Source: the human T2T-CHM13v2.0 reference genome, Homo sapiens
Reading direction: 5' to 3' (one strand)
Assembly (NCBI RefSeq): GCF_009914755.1
Contig: NC_060925.1
Length of the DNA stretch: 64,000 nt
The translations under genes were made by a program, and so were the position numbers. The notes below the pieces were generated by a model. That model worked only from the letters and a program-made list of their open reading frames with translations. It was not told where the DNA came from and did not search any database. Each line of letters starts with the position of its first letter. The first letter of the stretch is position 1. Of the stretch, positions 19,162 to 32,560 are shown one piece after another.

Positions 19162-20340
19162 TAAAAAGCTTCTGCACAGCAAAGGATACAATCAACACAG
19201 TGAAGAGACAACTCATAGAATGGGAGTAAATATTTGCAAACTACCTCCTCTAACAAGGGATTAATCACCAGAATATATAAGGATCTCAAACAACTCCATA
19301 GGAAAAAATCCGATAATCCAATCAAAAATGGGCAAAAGATTTTAATAGACATTTCTCAAAAGAAGACATACAAATAAATGGCAAACAGGCATATGAAAGG
19401 TGCTCAACGTCATTGGTGATCAGAGATGCAAATCAAAACTGCAATGAGATATCAACCCACCTCAGTTAAAATGGCTTATATCCAAAAGACAGGCAATAAC
19501 AAACGCTGGCAATGATGTGGAGAAAAGGGAATCATCATACACTGTTGGTGGGAACGTAAATTAATACAACCACTATGTAGAACAGTTTGGAGGTTCCTCA
19601 AAAAACTAAAAATTGAGCTATCATACAATCCAGCAATTCCACTGTTGGTTACATAACCAAAAGAAAGGAAATCAGTACATTGAAGAGATATCTGCATTCC
19701 TGTTTGTTATAGCACTGTTTACAATAGCTAGAATTTGGAAGCCACCTAAGTGTCCATCAGCAGATGAACGGGTGAAGAAAATGTGGTACTTATACAAAAT
19801 GGAGTACTATTCAGCCATAAAAAAGAATGAGATCCAGTCATTTCCAACAACATGGGTGGAACTTGAAGTCATTATGCTAAGTGAAATAAGCCAGGCACAG
19901 AAAGACAAACAGTGCATGTTCTCACTTTTTTGTGGGATCTAAAAATCAAATCAGTTGAGGTCATGGACATAGAAAGTAGAAGAATGCTTACTAGAGGTTG
20001 GGAAATATAGTTGGGGGTTGGGAGGCTGGTGGAGATGTGTAATGGGTACAAAAAAATATAGAAAGAATAAATATGACCTATTATTTGATAGTACAATAGG
20101 GTAACTGTAGTCAATAATAATTTAGTTGTATATTTTTTAATAACTTAAAGAATGTAATTGGATTGCTTGAAACCCAAAGGATCAGTGCCTGAGGCGATGG
20201 ATACCCCATTCCCCTTGATGTGCATATTTCACATTGCATGCTGTATCAAAACACCTCATGTACCCCATAAATATATATACCTACTATGTACCCACAAAAA
20301 TTTGTTTTAATAATTTAAAAAACTCTTTTAAGATTAAAAA
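19162..20340 (+). mobile_element. L1MA-type LINE 3' end (ORF2 C-terminus plus 3' UTR)
   Basis: aaaagcttctgcacagcaaagga..., ORF 19613..19942 (ALFTIARIWKPPKCPS...MEYYSAIKKNE), 3' UTR ending tactatgtacccacaaaaa. Confidence 0.9.
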
Positions 20341-20349
20341 ATAAAAGCA

Positions 20350-24260
<3,911 letters not shown>

Positions 24261-24757
24261 ATTATAATGATATTCAATAACTACAATAAAATATTATTTA
24301 AAAAATAACAGACATATTCAACTATAGAAAACAACATCAGGTAGAGTTTACAAGTCAAGCTACAATTGGTGCAAAAAAGTTTGTGTGTTATTTATGATGT
24401 AGAATAGATGAAGGGCGATAGACTGAAGTGGCTAGGAACATGGGAGCAAATCCCAGCTCCCTTACTTGCGAGGGGCTTTCATCATGCCTCAGTTCCATCA
24501 TCTGTAAAATGATAACAATAATACTATGACCTCACAGGGTTGTTGGGGGAATTATATGAGAAAATGCAGCTTGACCCAGAATAAATACTAAATAAATGTT
24601 AGCAATAGTAACATTAGTTGAGGTATAGGGCTATAACTATTAATCGTTACATTTTTTTTCTCTTGACTCACCTTCTCCCCTCATCTAAATTAGGAGCAAG
24701 TTGAGAAACAACTGCAGGAATCCAGCTGATGAACATCTATCTATAATCCTAAAGGTT

Positions 24758-25065
24758 GGCCGGGCGTGGTGGCTCACGCCTGTGATCCTAGCACTTTGGG
24801 AGGCCTAGGCGGGTGGATCACCTGAGGTCCAGAGTTCGAGACCAGCCTGGCCAACATGGAGAAACCCCGCCTCTACTAAAAATACAAAATTAGCTGGGCG
24901 TGGTGGCGCATGCCTGTAATCCCAGCTGCTCCGGAGGCTGAGGCAGGAGAATGGCTTGAGCCTGGGAGTTAGAGGTTGCGGTGAGCCGAGATAGCGCCAT
25001 TGCACTCCACCCTGGGCAACAAGAGTAAGACTCCGTCTCAAAAAAAAAAAAAAAGAAAAAAAATA
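24758..25065 (+). mobile_element. AluSp-like with TSD aatcctaaaggtt
   Basis: catggagaaaccc diagnostic; TSD on both sides. Confidence 0.9.
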
Positions 25066-25580
25066 AATCCTAAAGGTTGACTAAACTGCATTAGAGAAGC
25101 AGCTCAACCTGTGGCTACAAGCCTACCACTTTTCCTTCAGAATTAAACACTTCCATCCCCAACTGCATGTCTGCCCTCTGCAGGAGCAAGAACATGCCAG
25201 AATAAGTGAGTCTTGTCAGACAGAGAAGCTGACCACATAGTGGGGCCCAACCAGCCATTCCAAGGAGATGAAACACAAAGCCTCAGGGCGTCGCAGAATT
25301 GCTGTGGAGAGTGACTGAACTGACACCTCTTCCATCTCAGCAGCCAGAGGAGTCACTCTGCCTTTGGAAAGAAGGAGGGAGGGGATTGAGAGAGGTGACA
25401 AACGAGGGTTCCATTTACATGTCTCCTTCTTGGTCATTGAAGAAGAGCCCCTCCCTCACAAGGAAAACATGAGGTGAGAGGGCTGAATATTCCCTCTCAT
25501 TATCTGGAAAAAGTTTAATATGAAGCATTTATAAAGGAATATTTTACAGCCATTCAAAATTATGTTTTTTTGAAAGAATG

Positions 25581-25775
25581 TTTTTTTTTGCCTCAGGCTC
25601 CCAAGAAGCTGGGATTACAGGTGCGTGCCACCATTCACAACTAATTTTTGCATTTTTAATAGATACGAAGTTTCTCCATGTTTGCCAGGTTGGTCTCAAA
25701 CACCTCACCTGAAGTGATCCTCCTGCCTTGGCCTCCCAAAGTGCTGGGATTATAGGCATGAACCATTGTGTCCAA
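25581..25775 (-). mobile_element. Partial Alu
   Basis: Left arm plus part of right arm; 3' part deleted. Confidence 0.8.
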
Positions 25776-26624
25776 TGAAAAATGTCTCTTAACATTAGAC
25801 AATTGTTACAATATAATATGGAGCAATTGAAGGGACTATTGTACCATCTCTACCATATTGGCAGAGAAAAATTTTGAAAGAAGTACACTAAAATGTTAAA
25901 ACTTGATTACCTTTTGGCAGTAGACTTATGGGTGATTATAATTTTGTATAGTTTTCTGTATTTTTGAAATCTTTCACAGTTTTTGTTACTTTGATATTTA
26001 GAATTAAAGAAATATGACGAGCTAGTAGCTTCTTAAGACACTTTCGATCCCTCAAACTAACAAGGCATTAATTTAAAAGGACTTAAAGTGCATGATTTAC
26101 TTCTTGGCAACAGGTTTTTAGAAATGTGTCTGGAAGAAGAGGTTTTTTCTCCTCTTTGTTTCTATATCCATATCAGTATATTTTTATAAGCATGCATTAC
26201 TTTTGAAAATAAAATATAAGCTTTTAAAATTTGCATTTTAAAAAGTATTTAAAATATAAACTTTTATATCAAGAAATAAGAGAAACAAAGCAAAGTCAAA
26301 TATACATATACATAAAAACTTCAAAATTTATGGCTGAGTTTAGATATACCACAATCCACCTAGAAGATAGGTATTTATACCAGGGCTCTATTTCTGTGTG
26401 ACTCAAAGGCACCAAAAGGGCATTATAAATATTAATAAAAACCTCGAAAGCTAAACCACATTTTTATGGAGTTAGAAGCACAAACTGAAAGAATTAATTT
26501 GAGAAGGAGACGGTGGTATTTTTCTATGGTTGTTTTGTTTTGCTTTTACTGAGAAATCCAGTAGTTCCAATTCTGTCACAAAAAGGAAAATTGTATAGCT
26601 TGTTGTTTTGAAAATGGGTGATGT

Positions 26625-27275
<651 letters not shown>

Positions 27276-30214
27276 TCAGGCCACACACAAACATGCAGAG
27301 GATCAAGAATATTGTTTTCAGCACAGAATTTATATCTAAATGTCTAGTTGCTGATCTAGTCCTTAGGCCCTCCAGGAGTTAGGTCATCAATTAGGTGGCA
27401 ATGTATGTTTGTACATACGTGTTTTCTAAAACCTGACCCCCATAGCTGAAGAATATAAAGGGAAAAACGTAACTGTGTAACTGGTCTCTTGAAAATAAAA
27501 ACCAAATTGAATGAATGGAAAGGATGGGCATTTCTAAGATGAGGCTGCTGGATGGTGAATCCACAGGGACAATGATTAGAGGGGACAACTCAGCAATCCT
27601 ACCTTCCAGCCAGACTGCATTCCCTGTATAGGCCTGAGAGCTGCTGCATTAAACTTCAATCATAACGGGGCTGTGTTCCATTTACATAGCACATTTCATC
27701 CCGAGAATTTGGAGGACTTTGTAGACGTTATCACATTTATCTTCACATCACCCGCTGAAAAGCATGTTGGAGCAAGTGTTATCTTCCTTTCACAGGCTGG
27801 GAAACAAAGGCACGTAAACAGTTCCTCCATGTTCCCTGATGAGCCAGAGAGGTAAAGAAGAGACAGTTGCATGTTTTTGTCACTGCGAAGGAGCCAGGCC
27901 AGCACACATTCAGGGTTGAACTTTGCCTTCCATTTCAAGAGGAATCCCATTGATGATTAGATAAAGCATCAGTATCAGCAGGTAGAGTTAGCAAATGGAA
28001 AGATGTGTAAGGGGCTCAGGAAAAGTCCATTGAACAGCATGGAGAGGGGGTTTCCTTGACTACTTAGATGCCTGAAATTCTACTAACAGAGTTCTTCCTT
28101 TAAATTAAGGCACTGCAATTGGAAAAGTCTAGTGTAAAGTATGAATAGCGCTAGAGGCATACTACCTTTCATCACTTTCAGCTATAGCATTGCAATATTG
28201 ATTAATTTTTTATATTTTGTATCTAATTATATTGCTGGTTAAATCCTGAGTCTCAATGGAATGTGACACAGGACAAATAGATTTGATAGAAGAAGGAAGT
28301 ATTAGGATATGTTCTAAAGGCTTAAATCATTTTCAAAAAAGCTACACATTAATTAATTTGATTAACTAACTAGAAAAATATGCCCACACTGATTCTGATG
28401 GAAACATAAGTGATGGTGCTGATTCATGTCCTGCTGGCCACTCACCAGCTACACGTCCTCATGCATGTCAGCCTCCCAAAGCTCTCTTTCTCTCCTGTTC
28501 TGGGAGGACAATCGTGCAGTATGTTGGTGGAGATTCCTTCAAGGACAAATCATGACACAAGGATTGAGAACACGCTTGGGCAGAAATCCCAGAGAGCAAT
28601 GAGAGGGAATGGTAAGTGAGACAGGAGGGAGAGGAGACAAACCAATAAAGTGGCTGCCATGAGGTTACCACTAGGCCACTGCTGTCAATCTTTTTGAAGA
28701 CCCTCTGGGAGACCTGGGAACCTACCCCAGAATTGTCCCACCATGGGGAATAGGAAGTCAAGAAATTTTCCCAGAAATTCCTACCCCTCAAAGATTGAGG
28801 ATCACTCCTGGACTGAGCACCTCTAGCTTAGCCCTCAATTTACCATCTTCTCAGGAGGCGAGGGCACCCTCTCAGGCAAAGGGACACAGCTGTCATGCCA
28901 TCTGGCCTGCATGAGACCTCCTGGAGTAGGCAAGGAGACAGAGAGGGCACCAAAGGTATTTGCTGCATGTATAGCCACTTCTTATAGCTGTTGAGCTCAC
29001 ACAGTGATGGAGAAAAATATGAATACAATGTGCAACATAATGTTAGGCACACAATGAAGGGCCAATAAATGGTAATTGTGGTGGTGAATGTTGCTATCTT
29101 TTTTAAAATCAAGGCAGGCCTAGGTTTAGTGTCATAGCGAAGGAGCCAGGCACCATAGCCAGAAGCCCCTGGGTAGGTCTGGGAAGTCCTAGGAATTGGG
29201 AAAGGTGAAAATAGTACAGGTATGGGGCTGTAAAAGGCAAACTTCATGTCCTGCAGTGTTCTGCCTGTGGCTGGTCCTGAGGAGCACTGGTGGGTCAGTT
29301 TGGCCAGACCTCCAAAGAGAGCCACAGGAAAAAAAGAAGGCTAGAGGTCCTCATGACCCACCTCCCAAGATACAAGCAGACACTTGAAGTGGAAAATCCC
29401 TGCCACTCTGTAGGACAAGAACTACGTGGCCAAAAAGGGAAGCTGCAATAAATAGTTCTGGTTTAACCTGGGATGCATCACAGCTTCTCCAAAGTTTTGC
29501 TTTGACTTTAGGCCCAATTCAACCAACATGAAACACCCACAAATTAACTCCCAGGAAAAACATGGCTCTTTGAGAAAAGAACTGACACTTAGTAAGCAGC
29601 TGAGCCTGTCAGTCCAGGTTGCAGGATGGAGCGAGTGAGCTCTCGGCGGGTACAGTGGCTTGCACTAGCTGAATTCATTACTATTCCCTTTGTGCAGCCT
29701 TGTGCTTTGACCACTCGCATATATGGAATAGGACTTACAAAAGAAAACTGTTTTGTTTGGCAGGTGGGAAATCATTTCAATTGAGATATTTTTTCTGTTT
29801 ACTCAAGTAAATATAAAGATGCTTTGATTTTCCACAAAGAAAGAGTTGTTATCCCTATTTGAATTTATGTTGCTTCAAAAACAAACATCTTACTTTTAGT
29901 ATCAGAAGCAGACCATTCTGTTCCTTAGGGAAGTGATATTCTTTAGTAGACTGGTGGGAGACTTGTAGAATATTAAAAGGATAAGACAAATTCCAGAATA
30001 AATAACAGGGAAAATTTATTTTCTGAACTCTAATAACTATGATCTGTTCCTACAGTAGAATGGGCATTCAATAACTGGAACATGAAGGATTGGCCTACAG
30101 GGAAAGCCCAGGGTGGTCTGGGACCTCCCTGAACCTCCAGCAGATCTCATGAGACTGTCTTTAATTATCCTTTTCTCTCTCTCTCTCCCTCTCTCAGGCC
30201 TACAATGAACACTG

Positions 30215-31215
30215 TGTGGGGAAAAGAAAGAGAGATCAGACTGTTACTGTGTCTATGTAGAAAGAAGTAGACATAAGAGACTCCATTTTGTTCTGTACTA
30301 AGAAAAATTCTTCTGCCTTGAGATGCTGTTAATCTGTAACCCTGGCCCCAACCCTGTGCTCGCAGAGACATGTGCTGTGTTGACTCAAGGTTTAATGGAT
30401 TTAGGGCTATGCAGGATGTGCTTTGTTAAAAAAGTGTTGAAGGCAGTATGCTTGTTAAAAGTCATCACTATTCTCTAATCTCAAGTACCCAGGGACACAA
30501 TACACTGCAGAAGGCTGCAGGGATCTCTGCCTAGGAAAGCCAGGTATTGTCCAAGGTTTCTCCCCATGTGATAGCCTGAGATATGGCCTCGTGGGAAGGG
30601 AAAGACCTGGGAAGGGAAAGACCTGACCGTCACCCAGCCTGACACCCGTAAAGGGTCTGTGCTGAGGAGGATTAGTGAAAGAGGAAGGCCTCTTTGCAGT
30701 TGAGATAAGAGGAAGGCATCTGTCTCCTGCTCGTCCCTGGGCAATGATGTCTCGGTGTAAAACCGACTGTATGTTCTATTTACTGAGATAGGAGAAAACT
30801 GCCTTAGGGCTGGAGGTGAGCCGTGCTAGCAGCAATATTGCTCTTTAATGCACCAAGGTGTTTCTATACATGCACATCAAGGCACAGCACCTTTCCTTAA
30901 ACTTATTTATGACACAGAGATCTTTGTTCACATGTTTCCTGCTGACCCTCTCCCCACTATTGCCCTATTGTCCTGCCACATCCTCCTCTCCGAGATGGTA
31001 GAGATAATGATCAATAAATACTGAGGGAACTCAGAGACCAGTGCCTGCCGGTCCTCCGTAAACTGTAAGCTGAGTGCCTCCATAAGCTGAGCGCCAGTCC
31101 CCTAGGCCCACTTTTCTTTCTCTATTCTTTGTCTCTGTGTCTCTTTCTCTTCTCAGTCTCTCATCCTACCTGATGAGAAACACCCACAGGTGTGGAGGGG
31201 CAGGCCATCCCTTCA
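30215..31215 (+). mobile_element. HERV-K (HML-2) solo LTR, LTR5B-like
   Basis: Starts tgtggggaaaagaaagagagatcagactgttactgtg, has aataaa at ~31013, ends ggggcaggccatcccttca; ~1.0 kb. Confidence 0.92.
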
Positions 31216-31421
31216 CTGGACAGAACCAATGTACTTCTTACATATATTGATTGATTGATGTCACATGTCTCCCTAAAATGCAGAAAACCAAGCTGTGCCC
31301 CAACCACCTCGCGTACATGTCATCAGGACTTCCTGAGGCTGTGTCACAGGTGCACATCCTCAATCTTGGCAAAATAAACTTTCTAAATTAACTGAGACTT
31401 GTCTCAAATTTGGGGGGTTCA
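31216..31421 (+). mobile_element. 3' half of a MER4A-like ERV1 LTR
   Basis: gaaccaatgtacttcttacatatattgattgatg...ggcaaaataaactttctaaattaactgagac...ggggttca. Confidence 0.8.
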
Positions 31422-32493
31422 TAGTCCTAAAGTCATTATCTTATTTAATGGAAAAGCATTAGGGATGTTTCTACTAACATCAGAAGCAAGACATAAATAT
31501 CTATTATCTCTGCTGCTGTTAGAGATATTAGCCAGTGCAATTAGATAAGAGAAATCAGTGAAAGGCATAAGAGTGACTAAATGAGTGGTAAAACTATATT
31601 TGCAGATGATATAATAATGTATGTGGAAAATCCCAGAGAATCAATAATAAAACTAACTCAAACAATAAAATAATTTACTGAAGAACACGGATATAAAATT
31701 AACATAAAAATCAATAGCCTTCATACAAACAAACAGGGGACATAATGGTAGAGAAAACACCATTTAAATAGCATCAAAATATATGTATTTATGAATAAAT
31801 ATAAGTATTTATGAATAAATTTAATGAGGTATGAAAACCTATGCATGGAAAATGTCAAAACACTCCTAACAGACAGTAATAAAAACTTGAATAAAAGGAA
31901 AGACATTCCCAGGTTCTTGGATAGAATTATAGCTTTATGAAAATACCACTTCCCCCTAAGTTAATTTATAAATGTAATACAATTCCATCAAAATATGAAC
32001 AGGCTATTTTCTGGAGTTAGAGATTTTGATACTAAAGTTCATATAAAAAAAAAGATGGGTAGGAATGAGGTGGAAAACACTGAAAAAGAAAAGCTGTAGT
32101 GATTAGGCTTACCAGAAATTAAAACATTTGATAAAGCCTGGATAATTAAAACAGAGTGGTACTGGAGCACAGAGAAATAAAGAAGCCAGTGGAAGAGAAT
32201 AGTCCAGAATTAGACCAAAATACATATGGAAATTTAGTATATGACGAAAGTGGCATCTCAAATCACTAGGGTAAAACATACCATATAGCAGTATAAACTC
32301 CAAGTGGATTAGTGATGTAAATATAAAAACTAAAACCACATAGTATAGAAAATAAATGGCTACATTATTATTTAGCCTTGGTAAGAAAAAGCCTTTCTAA
32401 CTATGATTTAAAATCCAGCGGCAATTTTTTAAAAGATTAATAAATTTGACTGCATTTTTTTGTGTGATGAAAACCACCATAAACAAAATCAAA
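31422..32493 (+). mobile_element. Old L1M ORF2 (RT to C-terminal region) fragment
   Basis: tttgcagatgatata...gaaaatccc (FADD motif region) through aaaccaccataaacaaaatcaaa. Confidence 0.75.
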
Positions 32494-32560
32494 GAACTAT
32501 GATCATACCACTGCACTCCAGCCTGGAAGACGCAGTGAGACCCCATCTCTAAAAAAGTTT
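32494..32560 (+). mobile_element. Decapitated Alu 3' end (~65 bp)
   Basis: gaactatgatcataccactgcactccagcctgg...gtgagaccccatctctaaaaaa with no upstream Alu body. Confidence 0.8.

What the first reader, a model, noticed from the sequence alone, without database searches (positions are those of the whole stretch)
30200..31230. HERV-K LTR5 with mismatched flanks: a recombinant LTR marking a second rearrangement junction
Seen: the left flank is acactg and the right flank is ctggac, so the expected 5-6-bp TSD is absent. The right flank starts in the middle of a MER4A-like LTR, whose 5' half is missing on the left (unique, pyrimidine-rich sequence). Established: HML-2 integrations make TSDs, and LTR-LTR ectopic recombination yields chimeric LTRs with non-matching flanks. 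Inference: two different LTR5 insertions recombined, or a deletion ended at the LTR edge. This leaves only ~1.3 kb between two junctions, suggesting breakpoint clustering at the HYDIN2 acceptor site. It is also the alternative candidate for the HYDIN boundary.
Basis: partly seen in the sequence, partly recalled or inferred. Interest (0 to 1): 0.75.

Follow-up and report, generated by a model that had tools for sequence, protein, structure and literature searches.

The report
Viral LTR replaces lost 16.5-kb segment
A lone 1-kb retroviral end-repeat near NBPF12 sits where 16.5 kb of the ancestral DNA is missing, likely because two neighbouring viral insertions recombined long ago; it is an ordinary old scar and not the HYDIN2 boundary, which lies 1.3 kb further on.

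Summary
Observation confirmed; interpretation partly supported. The LTR (30215-31215, TG...CA, 1001 bp) has flanks ACACTG / CTGGAC and no 4-6-bp target-site duplication, whereas 16 of 20 control solo LTRs have one with at most 1 mismatch. The two flanks map 16,479 bp apart at the ancestral 1p22.3 locus, which has no LTR5 and an intact MER4-like element. So the LTR marks a derived deletion, not a mutated duplication. The second 1q21 copy carries both junctions (7 differences in 1001), so the event predates the HYDIN insertion and falls about 21 to 3.2 Mya. The true HYDIN boundary is at 32494-32497 and is already published, so this LTR is not a candidate for it. Breakpoint clustering is unsupported. 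Mechanism: recombination between two direct LTR5 insertions is most likely (0.55). A crossover could not be located: half-trees are unresolved, and the skew in rare sites is matched by two controls that have duplications. Microhomology at the right break keeps a single-provirus deletion (0.25) and a one-ended integration (0.15) alive. I did not find this deletion in print. It is a new instance of a known kind of event.

The parts
30215..31215 (+). Solo LTR5 (HERV-K HML-2) LTR, complete from TG to CA, no target-site duplication
   Evidence: 84-90% full-length matches to other copies; closest 5' match abuts a primer-binding site
30209..30214 (+). Left flank ACACTG; left deletion break, matching 1p22.3 C1:87,316,954
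31216..31421 (+). 3' remnant of a MER4-like LTR (name recalled); right deletion break, matching 1p22.3 C1:87,300,474
19951..30214 (+). 1p22.3-derived duplicated DNA left of the LTR (traced this far; shared with the second 1q21 copy)
   Evidence: 92-94% to 1p22.3 from 20820; 99.0-99.6% to the paralogue from 19951
31216..32497 (+). 1p22.3-derived DNA between the LTR and the HYDIN insertion
32494..32497 (.). True HYDIN duplication boundary: chr16 homology (C16:76,622,553 onward, 99.5%) begins, 1p22.3 and paralogue homology ends
   Evidence: PMC5345166 passages
30592..30623 (+). Private 16-bp tandem duplication inside the LTR
31046..31067 (+). Private 22-bp insertion inside the LTR
   Evidence: absent from the 23 other rows

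Best explanation
The LTR sits at a 16.5-kb deletion in the 1q21 copy of the 1p22.3 duplication, likely made when two same-orientation LTR5 insertions about 16.5 kb apart recombined and left one, probably hybrid, LTR with the left flank of the first and the right flank of the second. Shown: the deletion, its two breaks, its direction (1q21 is the derived state), exact LTR ends, and its presence in both 1q21 copies. Inferred: the two parent insertions, the crossover, and the timing (after the ~21-Mya duplication from 1p22.3, before the ~3.2-Mya duplication and HYDIN insertion; dates from PMC5345166).
For: Flanks map to C1:87,316,954 and 87,300,474, with 16,479 bp between and no LTR5 match in C1:87,296,001-87,326,000. 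The two tested parts of the missing interval (952 and 8,901 bases of 16,479) occur only at 1p22.3 apart from Alu-sized hits, so no reciprocal product was seen. Both LTR ends are exact, with no leader or internal residue, as two normal integrations plus homologous recombination predict with no extra event. Rare sites are uneven along the LTR: 5 in 1-600, 16 in 601-1001 (KS p 0.008; 0.02 without CpG columns). Direct LTR5 neighbours are not rare: 4 same-strand pairs 9-25 kb apart among the 98 chr1 entries of the published list (my count). Precedent: mismatched duplications from inter-provirus crossover (PMC11379458 passages); solo LTRs from recombination between proviruses (PMC3228705 passages).
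Against: No crossover could be placed: trees of 1-600 and 601-1001 leave the LTR unresolved or weakly placed. Two of 27 other copies, L061 and L063, both with target-site duplications, are as skewed. No intermediate with two LTRs is seen in this genome. The ancestral right break resembles the LTR end plus proviral leader within 2 edits, a match found at 6 sites in 30,953 bases downstream and 16 in 125,940 background bases, so this model must treat it as coincidence. That statistic was chosen after seeing the junction, and the 1p22.3 letters differ there from most MER4-like copies.
Confidence: 0.55

Rival explanations
1. One provirus inserted at the left site; a later microhomology-guided deletion ran from the end of its 5' LTR (or a solo LTR's right duplication) through 16.5 kb of host DNA into the MER4-like element.
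For: All 40 proviral LTR/primer-site junctions found read CA + 2-3 bases + TGG, 35 of 40 CA-TC-TGG; the ancestral right break is within 2 edits of that. A 6-base common stretch occurs at 1.3% and the 3-bp CTG repeat at 1.7% of 17,900 positions, both together at 4. Needs only one insertion.
Against: The observed junction has one base between CA and TGG, a spacing seen in 0 of 40 proviral junctions, so an extra small loss is needed. A deletion break must land on the exact LTR terminus. The microhomology may be specific to the 1p22.3 lineage.
Confidence: 0.25
2. One aberrant integration: integrase joined the left end, host repair joined the right end 16.5 kb away through short homology and deleted the interval at once; the provirus later collapsed to a solo LTR.
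For: For HIV and ASLV, one-ended integration gives deletions or duplications, usually with short homology at the aberrant end (PMC5041404 passages). Same microhomology as above. HERV-K insertions with target-site deletions of 6-10,207 bp are reported (PMC3625200 passages).
Against: Aberrant ends are often truncated and the reported HERV-K cases are truncated at both ends; here both ends are whole. It does not predict the uneven rare sites.
Confidence: 0.15
3. The deletion happened first at the 3-bp CTG repeat, and an LTR later inserted exactly at the scar with a since-damaged duplication.
For: CTG lies on both sides, and CACTG can be read across the LTR's terminal CA.
Against: It requires an insertion to hit a few bases in a duplicated block of tens of kb, plus a 2-bp loss. 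The ancestral paralogue does not have the flanks contiguous.
Confidence: 0.03
4. The LTR is the HYDIN duplication boundary, or was formed in that event.
For: It lies 1.28 kb from the boundary; the paper places the insertion at an LTR/LINE border.
Against: chr16 homology starts at 32494. The paralogue without HYDIN has both LTR junctions. In that paralogue a different TG-started element begins about 843 bp past the junction, fitting the paper's 841-bp loss (element not classified).
Confidence: 0.01

Closest known systems
HML-2 inter-element recombination with mismatched target-site duplications (gibbon case in PMC11379458, passages read; Hughes and Coffin 2001/2005 seen only as citations there)
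   Same: Whole LTR ends, non-matching flanks that map to separate ancestral sites.
   Different: Here a solo LTR, both flanks from one locus in the same orientation (a deletion); no reciprocal product found in the parts tested.
Catalogued solo LTRs HML2.LTR53, 54 and 61 (PMC3228705 supplement, part 1 of 8 read)
   Same: Span 1001, hg19 chr1:146.1-147.7 Mb, typed LTR5_Hs, dated about 20-21 My (16-25).
   Different: Matched to this element by length and band only; their comment cells are empty, with nothing on flanks or a deletion.
HYDIN2 acceptor locus (PMC5345166; parts 1-2 of 8 of the main section, passages and a supplement search read)
   Same: Same layered duplications: 1p22.3 donor ~21 Mya, inverted 1q21 copy, HYDIN insertion ~3.2 Mya.
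   Different: The text read gives 89 kb at 1p22.3 and 65 kb at 1q21 but does not mention this LTR5 or this deletion; its 'LTR' is the one at the other side of the 841-bp LINE loss.
Non-classical HERV-K insertions with target-site deletion (PMC3625200, passages read)
   Same: No duplication, host DNA lost, microhomology considered.
   Different: Those are truncated at both ends and human-specific; this LTR is complete and older.

Membership tests
HML-2 LTR5 solo LTR | Full-length LTR with TG...CA ends, similar to other HML-2 LTRs | tested here: met
   relatives that abut a primer-binding site at C1:32.92 Mb and C11:62.37 Mb
HML-2 LTR5 solo LTR | No internal viral sequence adjacent | tested here: met
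   both flanks align to 1p22.3 host DNA up to the LTR ends
HML-2 LTR5 solo LTR | Subgroup (LTR5_Hs, 5A or 5B) by diagnostic insertions | not tested
   no repeat library; the published list types the three 1001-span 1q21 entries as LTR5_Hs
Simple solo LTR from one provirus | 4-6-bp target-site duplication and contiguous empty site | tested here: not met
Inter-element recombinant LTR | Flanks from two separate ancestral sites, both LTR ends exact | tested here: met
Inter-element recombinant LTR | 5' and 3' parts with different ancestry | tested here: inconclusive
Inter-element recombinant LTR | Two-LTR precursor or reciprocal product | not testable with these tools
   no ape genomes held; no second copy of the two tested parts of the interval in this genome
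HYDIN duplication breakpoint | chr16 homology begins at the site; absent from the paralogue without HYDIN | tested here: not met

The most novel reading that the evidence does not exclude
The junction is a germ-line fossil of a single one-ended HML-2 integration, in which host repair joined the second viral end 16.5 kb away and deleted the interval in one step, a process so far shown mainly with drug-blocked or mutant integrases in cultured cells. It also trimmed the block that later supplied HYDIN2's 3' fusion exons.
Probability: 0.15. Interest if true: 0.55.

Novelty: new member of a known kind. Interest (0 to 1): 0.27.

Why it matters
It adds one bracketed step to the history of the HYDIN2/NBPF12 locus. 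The 15.5-kb net loss would account for about two thirds of the gap between the 89-kb donor at 1p22.3 and the 65-kb copy at 1q21 given in PMC5345166 (inference). It is also a clean marker for ordering ape 1q21 haplotypes. No functional effect was shown or tested.

Tried and rejected
Mutated duplication at a simple insertion: rejected, flanks are 16.5 kb apart in the donor locus. Insertion at 1p22.3 rather than loss at 1q21: rejected, the MER4-like element is whole at 1p22.3 and cut at 1q21. Inversion or translocation: no second copy of the two tested parts of the interval. HYDIN boundary: rejected. The 98% match of the first 241 bases to a chrX copy is not a donor signal: that part is close to many copies (95-97% over 346 bases) and the chrX copy is split by an insertion. 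Lower BLAST identity of the 3' part is partly due to the private 22-bp insertion. Half-LTR trees of 24 and 30 rows gave no supported switch; the set was limited to top-scoring copies out of 2,011 candidates, and six duplicate copies, including the paralogue, were left out. Literature: HYDIN2+breakpoint+LTR gave 1 paper; HYDIN2+LTR5 gave 0; 1q21.1+1p22.3+segmental duplication+HERV-K gave 0; LTR and HERV had 0 hits in the two supplement files of PMC5345166 held as text (figures not seen). Hughes and Coffin 2005 is not held. Earlier scan findings were not available.

Full report
Observation. The LTR spans 30215-31215, 1001 bp, starting TGTGGGG and ending CCCTTCA, with ACACTG on the left and CTGGAC on the right. 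No 4-6-bp duplication exists; only CTG is shared. Among 20 independent control solo LTRs (from 28 loci; 5 duplicate copies, 2 proviral 3' LTRs and 1 with an unclear end dropped), 13 have a perfect duplication, 3 have one mismatch, 3 have two and 1 has none. The missing duplication is therefore real and uncommon. Close relatives of the LTR do abut proviral primer-binding sites.

What the flanks are. The left flank has three copies in the genome: here, an inverted 1q21 copy at C1:146.62 Mb, and 1p22.3 at 92%. The right flank has the same three. PMC5345166 (passages and parts 1-2 of its main section) names 1p22.3 as the ancestral locus, duplicated about 21 Mya. There the left flank ends at C1:87,316,954 and the right flank begins at 87,300,474, leaving 16,479 bp that are absent here; 30 kb around them hold no LTR5 match. 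One Alu in that interval is 94.6% like a window Alu and looks young, so the lost length may have been about 0.3 kb shorter. The MER4-like element is whole at 1p22.3 and cut here, which makes 1q21 the derived state. Two tested parts of the interval have no second copy, which points to a deletion.

Timing and HYDIN. The paralogue carries both junctions letter for letter and differs at 7 of 1001 LTR sites. It has no HYDIN insert and continues colinear with 1p22.3. In the window, chr16 homology starts at 32494 and 1p22.3 homology ends at 32497. In the paralogue another TG-started element begins about 843 bp past that point, matching the paper's LTR/LINE border with 841 bp lost. So the LTR5 is not the HYDIN boundary and is older than it: between about 21 and 3.2 Mya by the paper's dates. 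The paper also reports likely gene conversion between the two 1q21 copies, so the lower bound rests on shared presence, not on the 7 differences. Three 1001-span LTR5_Hs entries at hg19 1q21 are dated about 20-21 My in the supplement of PMC3228705; I matched them by length and band only. Two events of different age lying 1.3 kb apart, noticed after the fact in a repeat-rich duplication, do not show clustering.

Mechanism. Two direct LTR5 insertions followed by recombination give exact ends and unmatched flanks with no further step. Such neighbours exist: 4 same-strand pairs 9-25 kb apart among 98 chr1 entries (my count). A hybrid LTR is hinted at but not shown. Rare sites number 5 in positions 1-600 and 16 in 601-1001 (KS p 0.008; 0.02 without CpG columns; p 0.003 in the smaller set). 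Terminal branches are 0.019 and 0.073. But L061 and L063, which have duplications, are as skewed, and neither half-tree gives a well-supported relative.

Against it stands microhomology. Proviral LTRs are followed by 2-3 bases and then TGG in 40 of 40 cases, TC in 35. The ancestral right break is within 2 edits of that LTR-end-plus-leader motif, a match found 6 times in 30,953 downstream bases and 16 times in 125,940 background bases. This fits a deletion from the edge of one provirus, or a one-ended integration repaired by the host as described for HIV and ASLV (PMC5041404 passages). Both need a further small loss, since the observed one-base spacing occurs in 0 of 40 proviral junctions. The statistic was chosen after seeing the junction, and the 1p22.3 letters differ from most of the 17 other MER4-like copies inspected. 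My weights of 0.55, 0.25 and 0.15 are judgement, not computed.

Known and new. Mismatched duplications from HML-2 recombination are described (PMC11379458 passages; PMC3228705 passages and section 9), as are HERV-K insertions with target-site deletions (PMC3625200 passages). The HYDIN boundary is published. I found no mention of this deletion; figures, most subscription papers and preprint supplements were not seen. Verdict: a real, apparently undescribed instance of a known kind of rearrangement, with no demonstrated function; interest 0.27.

Noticed in passing
window 32450-32540; C16:76,622,553: The HYDIN junction joins chr1 A-rich LINE-like DNA to an Alu fragment on chr16 with at most a few bases of imperfect homology.
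   Followed up: yes
L042 (C19:39,007,064-39,008,016): Another full LTR5 without any target-site duplication, with a CT-rich simple repeat on the left; a possible second rearrangement scar.
   Followed up: no
L061 (C22:23.07 Mb) and L063 (C9:145.50 Mb): Solo LTR5 copies with duplications but strongly uneven rare sites along their length; possible gene conversion or recombinant viruses.
   Followed up: partly
L025:5000-5300 (C1:87,301,003-87,301,296): A young-looking Alu with a long A tail inside the interval at 1p22.3, probably inserted after the duplication (subfamily not tested).
   Followed up: no
C1:147,859,127-147,859,538 (about 11 kb before the window) and C1:147,701,368-147,702,332: Two further LTR5 copies near this locus.
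   Followed up: no
C7:143,067,923 (+) and C7:143,071,918 (-): Two LTR/primer-site junctions 4 kb apart in opposite, converging orientation.
   Followed up: no
window 26611-27260: Two Alu copies head to tail, 322 bp apart, preceded by similar short sequences; they split the alignment to 1p22.3 near 26930.
   Followed up: no
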